A stretch of 64,000 nucleotides of DNA from Vairimorpha necatrix (taxonomy: Eukaryota), in assembly GCA_036630325.1 (NCBI GenBank), contig CP142728.1, forward strand, positions 248,001-312,000, given 5' to 3'. Below are positions 5,459-46,105 of this stretch, piece after piece (position 1 is the stretch's first letter; the number at the start of each line of letters is the position of its first letter). Below the pieces are notes generated by a model that saw only the letters and a list, made by a program, of their open reading frames with translations, was not told the origin of the DNA and did not search any database. A program made the position numbers and the translations under genes.

Positions 5459-6949
5459 TAATTAAAAAAGTAATTTCTAATTTATATTACCAATTTAAAT
5501 CGTAGCTTTTATGTGTATAAATTACCATATTAAACTGTTAATTTAATATTATTTATGTTTAGCACATTAAATAAATATTAGTAATACTAAGTTCTACAAT
5601 CTATACATCGCGATACAAAACAAATGAAATATTATAATTTTTTGTTATTTTATAATTTAATTTTTCAATAGTTGTGTAAGTGGGAGCATATTGATTACAT
5701 GACACATAACGGGTTAAATTAGTTTTTGACATATAATTACATATCATTTATTTACTCCAAGACTATAGTAATGATTGCAATATGTCTACATATGTTCATT
5801 TTAAGTAAATATAAATATTTTTGGAATATATTATAATTCCAAAAACTTTTTAAATTCAGGTGCTAATAAACAAAACTTTTAATGCTCAAAATACTAAATT
5901 GAAATTAAAAATTAAAAAAAAATAGTTTTGTGTCTTGTGTCACACTTTAAATTTATTACCTTGATTATATCTGGCTTTGAATAGATGTATAACCAAAAAC
6001 TTTAAATATTATTTTACATTATATAACAAGAATAACTGTCAAACCATTATGTTAAATAACAATATTTCTTGAAATACGATACTAAATATACACAATTATC
6101 ACAAATATTTCTATTTTTTATATAATCTGTACATAAAAATTATCCAATATGAATTTTGACTTCTATTATATTATAGTTTCATCAAGGGCACGTTCTATCA
6201 GTGTTACTCACCATTTTAGGTCTCGGGCACTGTGATTGATAGACCATACAAGTTCTTCAAACAGCATAGTTGCGTGTCTAGATGAACCTTTGCAGTTTTG
6301 AAAACTTTTGTACTTTTCATCATATTTATCAGTAGCCTTGTCTTTATTAATGCGTAAGTAACAAAATATAAAAACCATTATTATTGACATCTTGATTGTA
6401 AGTATTAATACATATAGTATTTAATGTAAAAATCAATGTTCAGTTTTTTCATAAATTTTTTTATTTAATCGAATTTCACACAAAAAAATTAAATTTTTTT
6501 TTAAAAATATTTTCTCCCTTATGTTTTTGACCTTTTTATTTTAAACTGCAACTATAATAAAGCATGTAGAATGGTGGTAATAAAGGTTAAAAATTCAAAA
6601 GTACTGATATAGCATACGAATGCAGTATTTTATATCATATTATTAAAAAAAACTAGGGTCGTTAATTTTTTTTACAAAGTCAATGTGATTTTTTGGAAAG
6701 AAAAAATTTAATGTTTTACTTTATGAACTCTTTTAATATTGCCAATCTTTAAAAAAATTAAATTAAGCTTCACTTTTATAATACATTATTAAATCTATTA
6801 CTAAAAACAACTAAGTAGTATAAAAAAAATTATAACAAATGGTAAGGACTAAAAAATTTATTCAACCTTGTTGTAATTCATTAAACATTTCAAAATTTAG
6901 CATTTTTGTAGAAATATTGTGTTTGTTCTTTTTGGGACAATCTAAGAAG

Positions 6950-7413
6950 ATATTTTAGGCGTTAATTTTCCGTGTGTATGCAATTAAAAAGTTGATTCAA
7001 AGACACGCCCATAAAACTCATTAAAGAATGTAATATACGTTTATAATTCGCGGTAAATGTTATAGTGTATCTGCGGACAATTTTAGAACCCAATCTTTTT
7101 ATTTAATGTATAAAAAAAAACCGACATGTGCAGTAACGATGTCATGAATTAGTAAATTAATTCGTTAAATTCTTGTGACAATACAAAACTCTGTAATTTA
7201 GAAATATTACGGACCACGAAAATACTAAATTGCAAGGATTGTGTATGTATAGGATTTACATAAATTACAACATGACAAATATTATTTTAAACTTAGATGT
7301 AGAAAAAAAATCCATAGGCATTTATATAATGATTTTTTTCCATATATAATCACTATAATATTGATGTGAGTTTATAAGTAAAATCTATAAATTACGGATC
7401 TTGCAAAAAAGAA
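6950..7413 (+). repeat. Highly decayed copy of the tRNA-headed retroposon family (boundaries approximate)
   Basis: Patchy matches to the 27384/28290 copies: gtgtatctgcggacaattttagaacccaat vs gtgcactctatggtggaattttagagctaact, and atacaaaactctgtaat vs ctacaagattctgtaac. It ends in CTTGCAAAAAAAG. Confidence 0.35.
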
Positions 7414-8751
7414 ATCACGCGTTTATAAATTAATAGAATGTAAAATACAAGCAAATATTAGGTCAAAATATGTGGGTTTCTATATATTAATTAGAATTTT
7501 TGGATTAGCAATAAAATAACCTCACCATTCTTATATTTTACTAATCCCTATAATTGTTTAGACTAAACTACAATATCCACACAAAATTTTGTATGTAAAT
7601 AGATGTTCCGAGTTAAATATGTACTAATTACAAAAAAAGCTCTGTTTTCTACTGGGCCAAGTTTTATAATTTACGCTCTATTGCCCCATAAACGTATATT
7701 ACAATGTTTTAATTCGTAGCATTTTCATAGACAAATTAAATATGATATATGCTCCAATTTAAAAATGCACACAACTAAATAAAAAATTACACCCGTGTTA
7801 AATGTATACAATCGTTTAATGAAATATTCTTATTAAACTTATTGTAAATATATTTCTAATCTTTGATCAAAAAAAGCATTATAGTTCGTGCATGTTTTAT
7901 GCTGAAAATTTTTTTTTACCCACAGATAAATAATTTTTTTCAAAATTAAAAAATGTAATTATGAATTAATCTGGAATCTGCCAGCGCCGAAACACCAATA
8001 AGAAAACGTTATCCCATATCAACTAAGATGCATAAGTGTAATGGCATGACAATAGAGATGTTATGACGAGAAACTAAAAAGCACTATATATCGCTATGCA
8101 AAAATATATAAATAAAATTCAAGGAAGTTGTTTAAGTTAATTTATCCAATTATATTGTCAAATGACTACATTGAGATAAGATGGACACTAAGATTTATAC
8201 TTCCGACGAATTGATATTACAATTCAGGCATTGTTATCATAAAAAAATAAAAAATTCAAAGAAAAGAAGTGTTTATACCTAAAGACTAAGCCTTATATTT
8301 GAATGATAAAATATGGCTTTTTAGCAATGTCTAAGAATCTGGATTTTTTTCTTTGTATGACTTGCATAGAAGGACATCTGCAAATTAGAAAACAATGTAT
8401 AAAAGTATTTTTCAAATATTAAACAAATTCAAGCATACAGACAATCAATAATGCACAATAATATTTTGGGCATAGGAGTATATAATTGAATTCGACGTGA
8501 TTGGCGATGTTAACGAAAGAAGAGAGAAGAATTATGTGTGGGTTTTCTCTAAATAAGTGTACATTTGCTAACTTCAAAATAAAAATATACATTATCCATA
8601 AATAATTCATAAATTATATCTATTATCATTTAAAGTGCATACATAATACACAATTATATAATTTTTGTTCAATGTCATCTCACATTAAACAATGTTATAT
8701 AATTAAAAAAAATCATATGCTGCAAAAATATATCTTTAAAATAAAGCCTAT

Positions 8752-15881: not shown

Positions 15882-16742
15882 TTTTGTAAAATGAACTTAG
15901 ATCATTTATGACACATCAAATATTTAGCAGACCATGTCCTGTCAAATGTGTCAAATTGTTTCAGATAAAAATGAAATATATTAAAAGACAGTTTGCTGCT
16001 TTTGCTGCACTATTTTTGCCACATTATTTTAATCTTGGTAATTTTCATATTTCAATTTTATAACTCCAAGAACCAAATTGTGACATTTTATTGAACTTTT
16101 TTTATTAGTAAATTTTCTATAAACAATTGATTCTTGTAATATTGTCCAGGTCATCATGAATATTGATGAATATAATGAATTATATTGTATTTTATATAAC
16201 ACTTGTTTCAAGCATACAATGATCTATTTTTTTCGGGGAGTTGGTTTATTTGTCTCGAAACAAACTCCATCAAATTAGATTCCTCATGTTTAGATAAGAA
16301 AAATAAAATCAAAATATGTAAAAAATCCGCACAAATTTCCACTTTTGTTTTCAAAAAAAAAATGGTGAAAATTTTTACAAAATTTAAAAAAATTTATCAA
16401 TTTTTTAAATTGTTTTAAATCACCAATGAACCATAATTTGCGTCTCAAATAGACAGCCTTAAAATGATATTTTTCAATATTAAATTTATTTAATTTAAAG
16501 ATAGAACTTGCATTTGAATATAATTAAAGCTGAAAAAATAACATTAGTAAATAAGTTAAGACTTTTCAAACACTTTTTGATCTAGTTCAAATTACCTGCA
16601 ATTAATATCAAATTTATTCAATTTTTTGATAAACCAAATCAATAAAATCAAAATCTAGACAAATTAAATCAGATTTCTCTTACCAAATACCATTGGTCTT
16701 TTAATTTATAAAAAAAATTGAAAAAAAATAAATAAATAATTT

Positions 16743-26670: not shown

Positions 26671-27383
26671 AGGAGGGGCATAAACAAAAAAAAATATAAA
26701 AAAGAAGAAGCTAAACATGAACTCATTCTAAAAAAAATTTATAGAAATCAGGATATCTTATTTTATATCGCAAAGATGCGCACTAAAACTCAAAATATAT
26801 TTTAAGCAACAACAAGATTAAATTACAAAGTTCTAATTAATACATAATAACATCTAAATTGAAATATATTGTCCATTGATTATTTGTAATAGTAAAAACA
26901 AAACTTAAGCGAAGACAAATTTAAAAAATAATGACAACGCGAAACATATGTAAAAAATTTGAAGCCAATCTGTCACTTAACATTCGGCGGGATATCGTGT
27001 TTGAATGTGAATTTCAGGGCAAATAAATTTAAACTATTATGTCATAAAAGTCAGCTGCGTGGTAGTGTAGATAATGTTTATAGCAGTACATAAGATTAGT
27101 AGTATTTTCGTCGTAATTGGAACGTCTTTACAGCGAAAAAATAATTCAACAAATATTAAAAATCAAATCTATAGAATACGAGAAAAAACGAAGAAATAAT
27201 AATGTTAATTTTCATTACGCTTATTGACGATGATCTGTATAAAACCAACTAGAAAAAATTTATGATCCAGGCAAATTATATAATATTTAAAAAATGCGAA
27301 ACTTTTCTAAAGCATTATTATAGACTAACTACAATTAATTTACAAAAAACGATCAAAATTATTTAGATAACATTAGATCAAAG

Positions 27384-28118
27384 TCGATGTTTCCAGTGTC
27401 AATGGCTGTGTTCAAATTTCAGAGGCACGTAATTGTTTCTACTTTCTATGATAAGCTGGAAAAACTCAAATGACGAAAATATTCCGGTAAACATTACGTT
27501 GAATTAAGAAAATAATTTCGTAAAGCCATAAGAAGATTAGCATCTGATGTAGAAACGCACGTTTAATTTAAAGAGGGCTGTTTATTCCTCAGGTAAGATT
27601 TCATACTTGAAAGTATCTGATTGGTACGGCCCAGTTGGAGCAAATGCAAGGTGCACTCTATGGTGGAATTTTAGAGCTAACTAAGAGACTAGACGAAGTA
27701 GAGCAATAAAAGGTCTCGTGGACCTTATCTTATAAAATATAAATTATTTTGTCTAATCTAGTGGTCAACGCAGTAAAATTTAATGCCGGGCTGGTGATGT
27801 GTTCGTGTAAGGAGCCGTATGTGCAATATAAATGTTTGTGTGGAGCTTTGAGTCAATACTATGATGTCTCTCCTCGGGTAATTAAAACGATGTTCTTTAA
27901 TTAATCCAGCATGAGGTACCGCTGGCGCGATTAAATGTACAAAAATGTTATCCTGGGACAAAACAATGGATTTGCCCGAGCCAAATGCATCTACATATTT
28001 GCTGGAGGAGATTATGGCGTTTTTAAATCTCACAGTACCAGTTGGATAAATTTACGCCAAAGTTCCTATTGTACTTATGTAAGGGTTTCTCCTATCTCTT
28101 ATTTGCAAAGAAAAAAAA
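27384..28118 (+). mobile_element. tRNA-derived SINE-like retroposon, copy A (5'-truncated)
   Basis: Colinear with 28290-29079. It begins inside the tRNA-like head and ends TTGCAAAG(A)n. Flanked by the imperfect direct repeat ATTAGATCAAAG / ATTAAATCGAAG. Confidence 0.75.
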
Positions 28119-28289
28119 ATTAAATCGAAGAACTGTTGTTAGATTTATTTAAATAAATTGAGGAACATACACAACAAATTCCTCCGACAATCTTGCTGTA
28201 AAGAAAACTTCGCCGTATCCATTGAACTTTGGCTCCAGGAAAAACGAATTATTTTATGATATAGTGTATCAAGAACAATTCAAAAGATG

Positions 28290-28362
28290 GGTGGCCTTGC
28301 CCCAGTGGTAGAGGGCGATGCTTCCATTGAGCAATGGCTGGGTTCGATTTTTAGGGGCACCA
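28290..28362 (+). other. tRNA-like head (pseudo-tRNA; loop contains TTCCA, Gly-TCC or Trp-CCA ancestry uncertain)
   Basis: Acceptor GGTGGCC/GGGCACC-A, D arm GCCC-CAGTGGTAGA-GGGC, B-box GGTTCGATT. Anticodon and T stems are imperfect. Confidence 0.7.
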
Positions 28363-29079
28363 AAATTGTTTCTACTTTCTATAATGCAGTTGGAACAACT
28401 TAAACGATGAAAATGTTTATGATAATTCATAAGTTGATTCAATAAAACTTGTGTGTGTCAAGCCACAAGAAGATTAGCATCTAGTGTAGAAACGCATCTC
28501 AAAGCCAAAAAGCAGTATCACCCCTTGGTGACTTAATGATACATAAAAGTATCTGATGAGTACGGCCTAGTTGGAGCCCATGGCTGGTGCACTCTAGAGT
28601 GGGATCTCAGAGCCAACTAAAAAACTGACGAAGTAGGGCAATAAAAGGTCTCGTTTATCCTATCCTACAAGATTCTGTAACACGGTGGCCGAAACTAGTG
28701 GGAGACTGGTAGTCAACGCAACCCAATAAAAACGTCGGGCTGGTGTTGTGGTCGTGTAAGGAGCCACGTGGGAAATATAAATGATTGTAGGAACCTTTGA
28801 GTCAGTAAGATTATGTTTCTCCTCGGGTTATAGATAACCATGCCCGTTAAGTATATCCACGGGGAGGTTACTCTGGACGCGATTTGATGTATAAATGGAA
28901 AGTGTTCTCTTGGAGCCAAAGTCCAATGGATACGTCGGAGCTTGGTGCGCCTGCAAGTTGTATAGGACGGTGTTTTAGTGAGTTAGAATCTGAAAGTATC
29001 AATTCGATGAAGATCGCTCCCAAATCGCTCTAATTCCTATGTAGGGTTTCTCTCTACCTCTTACTTGCAAGGAAAAAAA
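28290..29079 (+). mobile_element. tRNA-derived SINE-like retroposon, copy B (apparently full length, ~790 bp)
   Basis: tRNA-like head, non-coding body shared with other copies in this window, and a 3' end CTCTTACTTGCAAGG(A)7. Confidence 0.8.
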
Positions 29080-29599
29080 CGATTTAAACGAGATTTTATT
29101 ATCAGATACGGCTTGATTAAACTAAGGAGAGACATCTGCGTACTAACACGAAAGTCTTACAAGGATATGCATTTAAAAATGTCCTATACACTACCACAAC
29201 ACCACTCCTTTAATTTTTTTAGCTGTGTTAAATACTTGCCTACTAATAGTTCTTATCAGATTGTTTTGAAATCATCTAAGTTAAAAAAATCGTAGCGTGG
29301 TGACAATAGCATATCGATGATGCGTAATAAATTAAGTTGATTTGACGAGCACTTAAAAAATTTATTTTACGTAGATATAATGAATCTTAGTTAATAATAA
29401 GGTATTCTACGACAATCTTTTTGTTAATTCGTGGAAAAAGCGTGTTTTCGGGTATAAAGGAATTTACGTCTTTTGGAAATATTTTTTAATAACAAAATCA
29501 TTATAAATTTATTTCCTATAAATTTACCTTATAGAAATATATGGGTTATAATTACCAGAACTATGGTAATTTTAGCGGTATATACTACACTTAATAATA

Positions 29600-30382
29600 A
29601 AAACTAGACGAACTAAGCAGCGAGGTCTCGTTTCCATGCTTCATTGTTATGTAAAACTTGTTAAGTTAGAACAATTAGAGTATAAAATACATGGAGATGA
29701 AATAGTGTTTTAAGCCGGGGCGAGATCCAGATTATTGTAAGGGTCATTAAGTTAGTACGACAATGGAATTCCTCAGCATATTCCACAAGGCCGTTACAAA
29801 CGCATTATGAGTTATTAAAACGAAATAAAAATTCTTGATGTCAAATTCCAATAAATACGACGGAGCTCGCTGCACCCTTAAGTTTTATAATAAAGCTATC
29901 AGAGGGTGTAAAAACTCAAAGTACCAGGTTTCCGGTTATAAGATCCACCCATAGAAAAGACCATTGATCTCTTCTATGAGTGGATCTTTTCTATTGTTAT
30001 AAAATATTTGAAATTTCTTCTAAAATTTTTTGAAACTTTACCTCCATGAAAAAAAATCTTACACGCTAAAAGCAAATTAGACGTATTACAAAAATTGCGT
30101 GAAAACAATGGAACCATAAGAATGACTGCTTTCGAATTCCAGAATACACTGAGAATTAAAGGGCCATTATATTAAAGTGTTTCTTCTTTATATAATTTTT
30201 ACCATTTGGCTAGGAGGTGGATCTCTTCTACAAGTACAAAAACTCTTTTTGAAAAGTCGTAAAATTCGACTTTGGGGTGGATCTTATAACCGGAAACCCC
30301 GGTACCCGTTGAAAAAAAATACGTTTAATTCCTTCTGGTAACTGTTTAAGGGTTCTATCCACCTCTACTTGGAAATGAAAAA
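29600..30382 (+). mobile_element. Diverged, 5'-truncated copy C of the retroposon, interrupted by a pogo-like element
   Basis: Shared blocks actagacgaa, ggtctcgt, gccggg, ctcaaagTA|cccgttg (family ctcacagtaccagttg) and 3' aagggttctatccacctctacttggaaatgaaaaa. Confidence 0.65.
29924..30302 (+). mobile_element. pogo/Tc2-like (Tc1-mariner superfamily) internally deleted element, 379 bp
   Basis: TIRs CCAGGTTTCCGGTTATAAGATCCACCC and GGGTGGATCTTATAACCGGAAACCCCGG, with TA on both sides. A residual, frameshifted HTH-like peptide (SYTL..KLDVLQKLRENNGTIRMTAFEF) follows CCTCCATG. Confidence 0.8.
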
Positions 30383-31666
30383 TACCAGTTTAACTAGGAT
30401 CATACGTACATCTTCTGATCCGCAACAAAATTTCTTTTCATATTTTCGTGTAATAATGTCATTAATAAGTAATTCGGCTTGTTATGCTTTATTTTTATAC
30501 TTAGTAGTATTTACCGTCAACTCGCATCTCAGCCTAACGTAAGCTAATAGCAAGGCCGTGTGTTTTATATCTTTTTTGCACATAATTCATAACGTATTAT
30601 ACAGCTGTAAGGAAAACTAGCACACTTTTATCACATGAATCATCGAACGGAAGAACATATTGAGTGGGCATATGATTTATTGTATTCAGGACTTCATGGC
30701 AGTTTCTTTTTTTGGTCATTTCATGAATAAAACAATCTAGTTCTGAAGAAAAAATAGTGCTTTTTGTTGCGGTACTATCTTTTTTTATGTAAGAACATGC
30801 AGAAAATTTATTTCAACAAGTATTTTTCTCTTGTTCAATTTTTATTAATGTTATATTTGTTTTTGATTCGCTTTGAATTGTTAATAATTTGTACCTTTAT
30901 GATATTTCAATCAAGACTTTTTTTTGAATTTTTTTTTGCTTGTGTATCATTCAGCTTGATAGACATTGTAGCTGTTAGTATCAGAACCAAAAATAGTTTT
31001 GCATCGTTATTTAAATTTTTTCAGCTTTCGATTTATATTTTAAATGGAATTTTTTATTTATCATTATAGTCCAAATACAATTTATAATGATCGTGTATAA
31101 CGCTCGGATAAAAACTTTTCCTAATGGTTTCTGAACTTGTGAGGTAATAACTACATACTGGTTACGATGTACAATATGAGAGTATTTTTTAAAGCAGCTA
31201 AAAAATATTAGATAATGTATTTGTAAACTATTACAAAAAAAAGTATGTATTTACAAAAACAAAAAAAATTTATATTCAAATTGTACTGTAATGTTTCCTT
31301 TATATAAAATCACAAACTATTTCCATTTAAATTTTATACAGATTATAATTAAAAACTGTAGTCACTCGTTCGCAATCAAGTCTCTTAGATTATTCATGTT
31401 AAAATATTAAGAAAATTTAAAACAATATAATCGTTCACGGTCCTTTTTATCACTAGAGATAGCTCATATTTTTCATTAATTTTACTGAGATCTTTATTGG
31501 TAAAAAAAATATCAACTCTGATTAATTTACTACAATATCAACAAAATGTGCATATAAAGAAGATATATTAGGTAATTTATGCTCAAATACTTGAATATGT
31601 TAGAGAAGTAGAAATATCAAAAAAAAAGTTTATTTACAATTTTTTTATTTAGGTTTCTAATATTTG

Positions 31667-45849: not shown

Positions 45850-46105
45850 TCAAACCAAAGAGATACGTCTAATTTTAAGATGCAACTTAAGCCAAGAAAA
45901 AATGTATGTAAAATATTATACCTTTGTACGAAAAGTACTATAAAAGTGAGGGGCCTTAGATGATGGATTCATTACTAGCTAAACTAAAGGACTAGACGAA
46001 GCAAAGCAATGGGGTGTGTGAACTTAAACTACTAGTTTCTGCCCAAACTACGCGAAGCTTGTGATGACAAGAACCTAATACGGGGTTGGTGATGTGAGTG
46101 AGTCA
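45850..46105 (+). repeat. Internal fragment (copy E) of the tRNA-headed retroposon
   Basis: Matches agctaaactaaagggactagacgaagcaaagcaat, gcgaagcttgtg and cggggttggtgatgtg in the same order as copies A and B. Confidence 0.6.

What the first reader, a model, noticed from the sequence alone, without database searches (positions are those of the whole stretch)
27384..30382. Multi-copy ~790-nt tRNA-headed, A-tailed non-coding retroposon family
Seen: at least five same-strand copies (27384-28118, 28290-29079, ~29600-30382, ~45850-46105, 58886-59627, perhaps ~6950-7413). They share a non-coding body and, where intact, a TTGCAA(A/G)G(A)n 3' end. Copy B starts with a cloverleaf with A/B boxes. Copy A is 5'-truncated within the head and has an imperfect 12-bp direct repeat. 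Established: a tRNA head, A tail, 5' truncation and TSD are hallmarks of SINEs mobilised by target-primed reverse transcription, and most SINEs are shorter than this. Inference: an unusually long microsporidian SINE family, possibly mobilised by RLE-type non-LTR elements like the remnant at 61650-62251.
Basis: partly seen in the sequence, partly recalled or inferred. Interest (0 to 1): 0.75.

Follow-up and report, generated by a model that had tools for sequence, protein, structure and literature searches.

The report
Decayed tRNA-headed retroposon family
Worn-out copies of a roughly 0.75-0.8 kb non-coding mobile element, with a tRNA-like front end and a short run of A at the back, lie in this stretch of a microsporidian genome; it is an ordinary kind of mobile DNA (SINE-like) that I did not find described for this group of parasites.

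Summary
The repeat family is real. There are three near-full copies on the + strand: A 27384-28119, B 28290-29079 and E 58885-59627. They are 59-71% identical pairwise. Copy C (29594-30383) is 5'-truncated and split by a MITE-like insert. The proposed copy at ~6950-7413 was not found.

Homology stops at the head start and at the A run, and the flanks are unrelated. Removing B in silico rejoins F into one alignment, so B is a discrete insertion.

Only B keeps a recognisable head. ARAGORN calls it tRNA-Met(CAT) only at a relaxed threshold. It holds the window's only GGTTCGA and only CAGTGGTAGAG, 38 nt apart. Default ARAGORN and Rfam reject it as a tRNA.

The copies are non-coding. Target-site duplications are weak. 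There is no 3' similarity to the window's RT-element remnant, which is a 5'-truncated, A-tailed non-LTR-type copy.

Best reading: an old, decayed tRNA-derived SINE-type retroposon family (confidence ~0.6). Its length exceeds SINEBase's 700-bp limit, but fungal "SINEs" of 700-900 bp are reported. No eukaryotic DNA collection, Dfam, Repbase or SINEBase could be searched.

The parts
28290..29079 (+). Copy B: best-preserved full-length copy (790 nt including the A7 tail; GC 43%)
   Evidence: It was the reference for BLASTN and nhmmer. It has the fewest private substitutions: 65, against 92 for A and 150 for E.
28290..28362 (+). tRNA-like head of B. Acceptor stem 6/7 pairs; D stem 3 pairs as ARAGORN draws it (4 in my hand fold); anticodon stem 4/5; T stem 5/5, of which 3 are G-U; anticodon CAT.
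   Evidence: ARAGORN at -ps90 calls tRNA-Met(cat) here. It is one of 2 hits in the window at that threshold, and there are none at default or -ps95. The cloverleaf energy is -18.8 kcal/mol against an MFE of -26.0.
28298..28313 (+). A-box-like motif (TGCCCCAGTGG, then TAGAG)
   Evidence: CAGTGGTAGAG with <=1 mismatch occurs once in the window on both strands; 0.15 is expected. The A-box consensus is recalled textbook knowledge.
28341..28351 (+). B-box-like motif GGTTCGATTTT. It contains a T5 run.
   Evidence: This is the only GGTTCGA in the window on either strand. The B-box consensus is recalled.
29064..29079 (+). Conserved 3' end of B: CTTGCAAGG plus A7
27384..28119 (+). Copy A. The head is decayed or 5'-truncated. 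It ends TTTGCAAAG plus A9.
27373..27383 (+). Candidate 5' target-site duplication of A (TTAGATCAAAG)
   Evidence: It matches 28120-28130 at 9/11, and both abut the element. The null fraction is 0.039.
28120..28130 (+). Candidate 3' target-site duplication of A (TTAAATCGAAG)
28163..28242 (-). Old copy F, distal piece (model positions 624-707)
   Evidence: nhmmer E 1.5e-6. It rejoins the other piece when B is removed.
29124..29251 (-). Old copy F, proximal piece (model positions 413-543)
   Evidence: nhmmer E 1.3e-6
29594..29926 (+). Copy C, first part. It is 5'-truncated and starts near model position ~340.
   Evidence: nhmmer hit at 29703-29994, E 1.5e-10. The extension back to 29594 is by eye (ACTAGACGAA...GGTCTCGT).
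29927..30298 (.). MITE-like insert that splits copy C. It is not part of the family.
   Evidence: Perfect 24-bp TIRs; this is the only copy in the window.
30299..30383 (+). Copy C, 3' part. It ends CTTGGAAATGAAAAATA.
   Evidence: nhmmer hit at 30300-30395, E 6.9e-7
45977..46097 (+). Fragment D (model positions 330-470), weak
   Evidence: nhmmer E 0.0015 in the whole window and 4e-5 in the 701-nt subregion
58885..59627 (+). Copy E: full-length, most decayed, ends CTTGCAAAG plus A8
   Evidence: It lies about 32-36 nt downstream of the DNA transposon end at 58853.
61739..62246 (+). 5'-truncated RT-element (non-LTR-type) remnant: the last ~110 codons, a 3' UTR and an A9 run. It is a candidate class of partner, not shown to be the partner.
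   Evidence: tblastn with six RT-family relatives gives E 1e-22 to 1e-29. It is 60% identical to residues 1024-1088 of a 1185-aa RVT_1 protein. It has no similarity to the repeat family.

Best explanation
These are old, decaying copies of a tRNA-derived SINE-type retroposon of about 0.78 kb.

Inferred mechanism. A master copy was transcribed from the internal A and B boxes of its tRNA-Met-like head, presumably by RNA polymerase III. The reverse transcriptase of an autonomous non-LTR element copied the RNA at a nicked chromosomal target, starting from the A-run/CTTGCAARG 3' end. This left a short target duplication of about 10-11 bp. When copying stopped early, it left 5'-truncated copies.

Shown here: a discrete unit with fixed ends, a nested insertion, no coding capacity, a tRNA-like head, an A-run end, a truncated copy, and AT-biased decay.

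Inferred only: Pol III transcription, the RNA intermediate, and dependence on a LINE.
For: 1. Discrete unit. Homology among A, B and E starts at the head and ends at the A run. In all 6 pairwise comparisons, the 150-nt flanks are no more alike than shuffles.
2. Insertion. The two minus-strand pieces of F are collinear and are interrupted exactly by B. Removing B in silico gives one alignment over model positions 413-705 at 38.7 bits, against two separate hits of 19.9 and 19.7 bits. Dropping one 11-nt flank copy gives 39.8 bits.
3. Head. ARAGORN at 90% threshold calls tRNA-Met(CAT) at 28290-28362, one of 2 hits in 128 kb searched. The window's only GGTTCGA and only CAGTGGTAGAG lie here, 38 nt apart on the same strand. 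A and E carry homologous but decayed versions (family D7).
4. 3' end. CTTGCAARG plus A7-A9 is present in A, B and E.
5. Copy C lacks the first ~340 positions.
6. Non-coding. Each frame has 8-20 stops and no open frame is shared. There is no Pfam hit at or below E 0.01 for the 62 window ORFs of >=60 aa outside the large genes; the ORFs within the copies are among them, and their only matches are far-below-cutoff ones at E 0.04-0.06. The 89-aa ORF of B has no true relative among 1.84 billion representatives. Its single hit is a tandem-repeat translation.
7. Strand asymmetry. A4+ runs number 9/8/15 and T4+ runs 3/2/4 in A/B/E. Each T5+ run is specific to one copy.
8. Decay. Private changes in A and E are GC-to-AT biased (42:27 and 70:42). 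B is GC-richest and least changed.
9. A 5'-truncated, A-tailed RT-element copy in the same window shows that this mode of retroposition operates in this genome.
Against: - Default ARAGORN finds no tRNA.
- Rfam's tRNA model is not among the matches at E<=10, even when only 121 nt are searched.
- The MFE fold of the head is not a cloverleaf, and its z-score is -0.51.
- Only B keeps the boxes.
- Every copy has one T5+ run that could stop Pol III. B's lies inside the head.
- T4+ runs are not significantly depleted relative to composition shuffles (P 0.25-0.6).
- Target duplications are weak. The null fractions are A 0.039, B 0.073, E ~0.3 and C ~0.7, and I chose the ends after seeing the data.
- There is no 3' similarity to the RT remnant and no tblastn similarity to RT-family proteins.
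- Length without the tail is 726-782 nt, above SINEBase's <700 bp limit.
- Only three near-full copies were available, at 59-71% identity.
- No genome-wide or cross-species DNA could be searched.
Confidence: 0.6

Rival explanations
1. It is a non-autonomous retroposon that is not Pol III-driven. It could be a LINE-derived or Pol II-transcribed, polyadenylated element. In that case the tRNA-like 5' end is a captured or incidental sequence, not the promoter.
For: The length of ~0.78 kb is above the usual SINE range. Each copy has internal T5+ runs. The head fails standard tRNA detection. Only B has intact boxes. Long SINE-like partners of RLE-type LINEs in Entamoeba are recalled from memory and were not checked.
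Against: The tRNA-like sequence sits exactly at the 5' boundary of the unit and is homologous in A, B and E. The co-occurrence of the A- and B-box motifs is very unlikely by chance. There is no similarity to the RT remnant or to RT-family proteins. By eye there is no AATAAA in the last ~50 nt of B.
Confidence: 0.15
2. The repeats are LTRs (paired or solo) of a Helenus-like non-autonomous LTR retrotransposon (TRIMp3), a type that carries a tRNA-like sequence inside its LTR. Under this reading A and B would be the two LTRs around a 170-bp internal region.
For: A and B are direct repeats 170 bp apart. Helenus elements with tRNA-like LTR sequences exist in fungi, animals and plants (abstract of PMC10886601). 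B is bounded by TG (28288-9) and CA (29068-9).
Against: The 170-bp spacer is largely the minus-strand remnant of an older copy of the same family (28163-28242), continuous with 29124-29251 beyond B. By eye, no TGG-starting PBS follows A and only a 6-nt purine run precedes B. The G(A)7-9 that follows CA is conserved in all copies, so the unit does not end in CA. By eye, the candidate 5-bp duplications do not match. A and B are only 71% identical.
Confidence: 0.05
3. It is a locally duplicated, non-mobile sequence, for example a small family of structured non-coding RNA genes or a decayed gene family.
For: Four of the six copies or fragments lie within 3 kb (27.4-30.4 kb), and five of six are on the same strand. 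The copies are GC-richer (36-43%) than the window, whose 2-kb tiles are 20-36% GC.
Against: The flanks are unrelated. B interrupts F. Copy E lies 30 kb away. RNAalifold gives an unfavourable covariation term of +3.98 kcal/mol on the 3 sequences. No Rfam family matches. Decay is AT-biased and the head is lost in A and E. No coding signal was found.
Confidence: 0.07
4. It is a non-autonomous element of another class: a DNA transposon, a Helitron-like element or an unknown class.
For: DNA transposons are active in this window: an element with 159-nt TIRs that are 99% complementary, and a MITE with perfect TIRs. Non-autonomous Helitrons are reported in connection with Nosema (search listing of PMC4038834; the paper was not read).
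Against: No terminal inverted repeats pair the ends of A, B or E. By eye the ends are not TC...CTRR. The A-run end and the 5'-truncated copy fit retroposition better.
Confidence: 0.05

Closest known systems
tRNA-derived SINEs, such as MgSINE of Magnaporthe (472 bp, tRNA-derived, head folds as a cloverleaf; from passages of PMC5063351) and the commonest SINEBase architecture of tRNA head, body of unknown origin and tail (PMC3531059)
   Same: The order is the same: tRNA-like head, then a body of unknown origin, then an A-rich tail. It also has no coding capacity, includes a 5'-truncated copy and has short flanking direct repeats.
   Different: It is 726-782 nt without the tail, against 75-662 nt for the 175 SINEBase families and the formal <700 bp limit. 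The head fails default tRNA detection. Pol III transcription and a partner LINE are not shown.
Long fungal elements called SINEs: mgsr1 (800 bp), Egr1 (700 bp) and EGH24/egh1 (900 bp), as listed in the introduction of PMC5063351
   Same: They are similar in length (0.7-0.9 kb), have low to moderate copy number, and occur in fungi, to which microsporidia are related.
   Different: I saw only that one-sentence listing. Their sequences and structures were not available to compare, so no homology is claimed.
Helenus (TRIMp3): non-autonomous LTR retrotransposons with a tRNA-like sequence in the LTR (abstract of PMC10886601)
   Same: It is a tRNA-like sequence inside a dispersed non-coding repeat. 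A and B are direct repeats close together.
   Different: There is no PBS or PPT. The unit ends in an A run, not in CA. There are no 4-5 bp duplications. The 'internal region' is an older copy of the same family in reverse orientation.
Entamoeba SINEs partnered with RLE-type LINEs (recalled from memory, not checked in any call)
   Same: They are long (about 0.5-0.65 kb) non-coding retroposons in a parasitic protist whose LINEs lack an AP endonuclease.
   Different: As I recall, they have no tRNA head and share their 3' ends with the partner LINEs. Here a tRNA-like head is present and no shared 3' end was found.

Membership tests
SINE (SINEBase definition, PMC3531059) | Non-autonomous: no coding capacity | tested here: met
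   Each frame has 8-20 stops and no open frame is shared by the three copies. There is no Pfam hit at or below E 0.01. The ORF of B has no true protein relative.
SINE (SINEBase definition, PMC3531059) | Head derived from a small RNA (tRNA) with an internal Pol III promoter (A and B boxes) | tested here: inconclusive
   For: ARAGORN at -ps90 calls tRNA-Met(CAT) at 28290-28362, and the A- and B-box-like motifs are unique in the window. Against: default ARAGORN and the Rfam tRNA model are negative, the MFE fold is not a cloverleaf, and the boxes are decayed in A and E.
SINE (SINEBase definition, PMC3531059) | Transcribed by RNA polymerase III | not testable with these tools
   No expression data were available. 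Indirect signs: A4+ runs outnumber T4+ runs on the sense strand 32 to 9, but each copy has one T5+ run.
SINE (SINEBase definition, PMC3531059) | Relatively short (<700 bp) | tested here: not met
   The copies are 726, 782 and 730 nt without the terminal A run. The SINEBase range is 75-662 nt.
SINE (SINEBase definition, PMC3531059) | 3' tail of simple or A-rich repeats | tested here: met
   A9, A7 and A8 follow the conserved TTGCAARG in A, B and E, and C has a degenerate version. The tails are short and similar in length, so the run may be templated.
SINE (SINEBase definition, PMC3531059) | Reverse transcription by a partner LINE, often shown by a shared 3' region | tested here: not met
   There is no similarity to the only RT-element remnant in the window beyond shuffles, in 8 comparisons. 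tblastn with 6 RT-family proteins gives no match in the copies. Dependence itself cannot be tested here, and no full-length LINE DNA was available.
SINE (SINEBase definition, PMC3531059) | Target-site duplications flanking the copies | tested here: inconclusive
   A has 9/11 (null 0.039), B 8/10 (0.073), E 7/10 (0.33) and C none (0.68). The F/B junction has 11 nt more than the model expects.
SINE (SINEBase definition, PMC3531059) | Dispersed, multi-copy, independent insertions | tested here: met
   Six copies or fragments lie in 64 kb at three loci. The flanks are unrelated. B is nested in F. The genome-wide copy number is unknown.
Functional tRNA gene | Passes standard tRNA detection | tested here: not met
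   ARAGORN at default finds 0 genes in the window. Rfam finds nothing at gathering score or at E<=10.
Helenus / TRIMp3 LTR element (PMC10886601) | Two LTRs flanking a PBS and PPT, TG...CA ends, and 4-5 bp target duplications | tested here: not met
   By eye, there is no PBS after A and only AAAAGA before B. The unit ends in G(A)n after CA in all copies. The spacer between A and B is an inverted older copy.
MITE / TIR DNA transposon | Terminal inverted repeats | tested here: not met
   No inverted-repeat pair joins the ends of A, B or C in 27000-30600.
Retrozyme / hammerhead-bearing retroelement | Hammerhead ribozyme motif | tested here: not met
   B contains CTGATGAG (about 28555-28562), but no hammerhead family appears at E<=10 in 28500-28700. 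The motif is not kept in A or E.

The most novel reading that the evidence does not exclude
This would be the first characterised SINE family of Microsporidia. It would be a Pol III-driven, tRNA-Met-headed retroposon of ~0.78 kb, longer than any of the 175 SINEBase families. It would be mobilised through its A-run/CTTGCAARG end by the endonuclease-C-terminal (RLE-like) RT elements that are widespread in Nosema/Vairimorpha-type genomes. It would also tend to insert into or next to its own older copies, since four insertions lie within 3 kb and one is nested.
Probability: 0.3. Interest if true: 0.5.

Novelty: new member of a known kind. Interest (0 to 1): 0.35.

Why it matters
Microsporidian genomes are models of extreme reduction, yet some carry many mobile elements. 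Two TE surveys I checked do not contain the word SINE in their main text (PMC4202319 and PMC7313128). Two genome papers use it only as a RepeatMasker category.

A curated SINE-type family would improve repeat annotation. It would prevent false tRNA or 'hypothetical protein' calls. It would provide insertion markers for strain and species phylogeny. It would also point to which resident reverse transcriptase is or was active.

For TE biology it is a modest addition. The architecture is the commonest SINE type, and similar lengths are already reported for fungal elements.

Tried and rejected
- Coding gene on the minus strand. A and B both have ~90-aa open frames there, but only the last ~40 residues align. 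E is closed and uses a different frame. The ORF has no relatives. The single hit, P0154, is a translated tandem repeat. Rejected.
- LTR of the integrase ORF upstream of E. The ORF 56471-58195 belongs to a DNA transposon bounded by 159-nt TIRs that end at 58853, before E begins. Rejected.
- Hammerhead ribozyme, prompted by CTGATGAG in B. Rfam is negative.
- Conserved RNA structure. RNAalifold on 3 sequences gives a covariation term of +3.98, so there is no support.
- Shared 3' tail with the RT remnant. None was found.
- F continuing beyond A. Removing A in silico does not extend the F alignment. The short F flank pieces are not individually significant.
- Segmental duplication of A and B. The flanks are unrelated.
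- A majority consensus for counting T runs. My script anchored it wrongly (407 nt), so I do not use that result.
- PDB search with the RT-remnant ORF. Nothing below E 1.
- Two pattern scans of the bacterial/archaeal genome-contig collection. Both gave 0 matches. That collection is not expected to hold microsporidia.
- The listing of cluster members could not be run because the database was switched off.
- The protein-atlas search gave only 'Eukaryota' for Sec61.
- Literature searches for a described microsporidian SINE found none. These covered the held library only. Supplements were not read, and Dfam, Repbase and SINEBase were not available.
Full report
**Context.** The window is AT-rich, with 20-36% GC per 2-kb tile. 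It is densely packed with intron-less eukaryotic housekeeping genes: RNR large subunit, Sec61 alpha, Kae1, TAF2, eIF5B-like, HECT ligase and SPC22. The closest named relatives of its Kae1 are Encephalitozoon (69% identity) and Ordospora (66%), and closer hits are unnamed. A microsporidian origin is therefore supported. I did not try to name the record.

**Observation.** BLASTN of copy B against the window finds A (27385-28117, 69.7%) and E (59090-59626, 68.4%), plus two short pieces. A three-way alignment extends E to about 58885-58889. It shows a shared 3' end, CTCTTAYTTGCAARG followed by A7-A9. A profile of A, B and E finds further pieces:
- C at 29703-29994 (E 1.5e-10) and 30300-30395 (E 6.9e-7).
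- Two minus-strand pieces at 29251-29124 (model 413-543) and 28242-28163 (model 624-707), E about 1e-6 each.
- A weak fragment at 45977-46097 (E 0.0015).

Nothing is found at 6800-7500, even when that stretch is searched alone at E<=50. Pairwise identities are A-B 519/729, B-E 470/736 and A-E 406/687. One listed copy is absent, one is only a weak fragment, and one older inverted copy was missed.

**A discrete, inserted unit.** The 150 nt upstream and downstream of A, B and E are no more similar than shuffles in all six comparisons. The similarity therefore begins at the head and ends at the A run, and A and B are not a segmental duplication.

The two minus-strand pieces are collinear parts of one older copy, F, and copy B sits between them. 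There are 91 nt of non-B DNA for 80 model positions. When B is removed in silico, nhmmer returns a single alignment over model positions 413-705 at 38.7 bits, instead of two hits of about 20 bits each. Dropping one 11-nt flank copy gives 39.8 bits. This is the best evidence that the unit moves and that its ends are near 28290 and 29079. Removing A does not extend F. The short junction pieces are not individually significant.

Copy C starts near model position 340, so it is 5'-truncated. It is itself interrupted by a 372-bp element with perfect 24-bp TIRs.

**Head.**
- Default ARAGORN finds no tRNA in the window.
- Rfam finds nothing at gathering score. No tRNA match appears at E<=10, even when only 28270-28390 is searched.
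- At 90% of ARAGORN's thresholds, 28290-28362 is called tRNA-Met(CAT). It is one of two hits in the window at that setting.
- The cloverleaf has 6/7 acceptor pairs, 4/5 anticodon-stem pairs and 5/5 T-stem pairs, three of them G-U. ARAGORN draws 3 D-stem pairs, and 4 can be drawn by hand. Its energy is -18.8 kcal/mol.
- The MFE fold is a different structure at -26.0 kcal/mol, with a z-score of -0.51.
- The window's only GGTTCGA (28341) and only CAGTGGTAGAG (28303, <=1 mismatch allowed) lie here, 38 nt apart on the same strand. The A- and B-box consensus sequences are recalled textbook motifs.
- A and E carry homologous but eroded versions of this region.

I read this as a tRNA-derived head that is decayed, not as a tRNA gene.

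**Body and coding capacity.** Every frame of A, B and E has 8-20 stops. A and B both have ~90-aa open frames on the minus strand, but only their last ~40 residues align, and E is closed there. None of the 62 window ORFs of >=60 aa outside the large genes has a Pfam hit at or below E 0.01. The ORFs within the copies are among them, and their only matches are far-below-cutoff ones at E 0.04-0.06. The B ORF has no near homologue. Its one hit among 1.84 billion representatives is a translated tandem repeat. Rfam finds no family in the body. RNAalifold on the three copies gives an unfavourable covariation term.

**Age.** B has the fewest private substitutions (65, against 92 for A and 150 for E) and the highest GC (43%, against 37% and 36%). 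Private changes in A and E are biased from G/C to A/T. B also lies inside the much more eroded F. The copies here are therefore old, and B is closest to the source sequence.

**Pol III compatibility.** On the sense strand, A4+ runs number 9, 8 and 15, and T4+ runs 3, 2 and 4. Typical 780-nt tiles of the window have 12.5 T4+ runs on average. Against composition shuffles, however, T runs are not significantly depleted (P 0.25-0.6). Each copy has one T5+ run at a copy-specific place, and B's lies in the T arm. This is compatible with a T-run-poor ancestor but does not prove it.

**Target-site duplications.** With the ends fixed at the head start and the end of the A run, the results were as follows:

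| Copy | Best abutting repeat | Null fraction |
|---|---|---|
| A | 9/11 | 0.039 |
| B | 8/10 | 0.073 |
| E | 7/10 | 0.33 |
| C | none | 0.68 |

A stricter score found nothing. One search used wrong 3' ends and is disregarded. I chose the ends after seeing the data, so this evidence is weak.

**Partner element.** The ORF at 61715-61909 is 60% identical to residues 1024-1088 of a 1185-aa protein. That protein's only Pfam domain is RVT_1 (residues 455-695), with no AP-endonuclease domain. Relatives occur in Vairimorpha apis, Astathelohania contejeani, Nosema granulosis and Hamiltosporidium. One relative has a sub-threshold match to a restriction-enzyme N-terminal family (E 0.0064). That match, together with my recollection of RLE-clade C-termini, is all that supports 'RLE-type'.

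tblastn shows that only the last ~110 codons (61739-62080) are present, followed by a 3' UTR ending in A9. The window therefore holds a 5'-truncated, A-tailed copy of a non-LTR-type element. It shares no sequence with the repeat family beyond chance in 8 comparisons. No RT-family protein matches the copies. The proposed partnership is possible only through the A run and is not shown.

**Rivals.**
- A Helenus-like TRIM with a tRNA-like LTR (abstract of PMC10886601) is contradicted. There is no PBS or PPT, the G(A)n after CA is conserved, and the A-B spacer is an inverted older copy.
- An LTR of the integrase ORF upstream of E is excluded. That ORF belongs to a DNA transposon with 159-nt TIRs ending at 58853.
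- TIR, Helitron, hammerhead and structured-RNA readings found no support.

**Comparison with what is known.** SINEBase defines SINEs as shorter than 700 bp and Pol III-transcribed. [quoted passage not shown] The tRNA head, unknown body and tail arrangement is its commonest type, at 41% (passages of PMC3531059). This family fits that architecture but exceeds the length.

The introduction of PMC5063351 lists fungal elements called SINEs of 700-900 bp (mgsr1, Egr1, EGH24) and the 472-bp tRNA-derived MgSINE. The length is therefore not unprecedented.

My four literature searches found no described microsporidian SINE family. Two TE surveys have no occurrence of 'SINE' in their main text. Two genome papers use it only as a RepeatMasker category. 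Supplements were not read.

**Unchecked.** No eukaryotic DNA collection was available, and neither were Dfam, Repbase or SINEBase. Copy number, consensus, young copies and cross-species distribution therefore remain unknown. Two scans of the bacterial/archaeal collection found nothing.

**Verdict.** This is a real repeat family. It is most likely a decayed tRNA-derived SINE-type retroposon (confidence 0.6). It is a new member of a known kind and of modest interest.

Noticed in passing
window 56098-58853: A young DNA transposon. Its 159-nt terminal inverted repeats are 99% complementary. It carries a 574-aa ORF (56471-58195) with integrase core (rve) and H2C2 zinc-binding domains. From memory this resembles Ginger-type elements. 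Its right end lies about 32-36 nt upstream of copy E.
   Followed up: partly
window 29927-30298: A 372-bp MITE-like element with perfect 24-bp TIRs (GGTTTCCGGTTATAAGATCCACCC) is inserted in copy C. GTACC-like sequence is duplicated at its flanks. It is the only copy in the window.
   Followed up: partly
window 61739-62246: A 5'-truncated remnant of an RT-encoding non-LTR-type element, with an internal stop at 61910 and an A9 tail. Relatives are annotated as hypothetical proteins or reverse transcriptase in several microsporidia.
   Followed up: yes
protein hits (P0133, P0121): A 129-aa protein labelled as from a Clostridium sp. MAG is 61% identical to the microsporidian RT-element C-terminus. 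This suggests a eukaryotic contaminant contig in that bin. A Vairimorpha apis protein named as a GlcNAc-PI de-N-acetylase contains two copies of the same RT-element segment, which suggests a chimeric gene model.
   Followed up: no
window 63769-63999 and 1970-2485: ORFs with FLYWCH zinc-finger matches. The first (E 9.5e-18) runs off the window end. The second is weak (E 0.036). They may be parts of other mobile elements.
   Followed up: no
window ~63240-63345: A short tandem array of ~12-13-nt units (AATTCACCGA-like), seen by eye.
   Followed up: no
window ~28555-28562: Copy B contains CTGATGAG, the hammerhead core word. It is not conserved in A or E, and Rfam finds no ribozyme.
   Followed up: yes
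window 16351-16440 (-): The only other sub-threshold ARAGORN hit at -ps90: tRNA-Phe(aaa), 90 nt. It is probably chance in AT-rich DNA.
   Followed up: no
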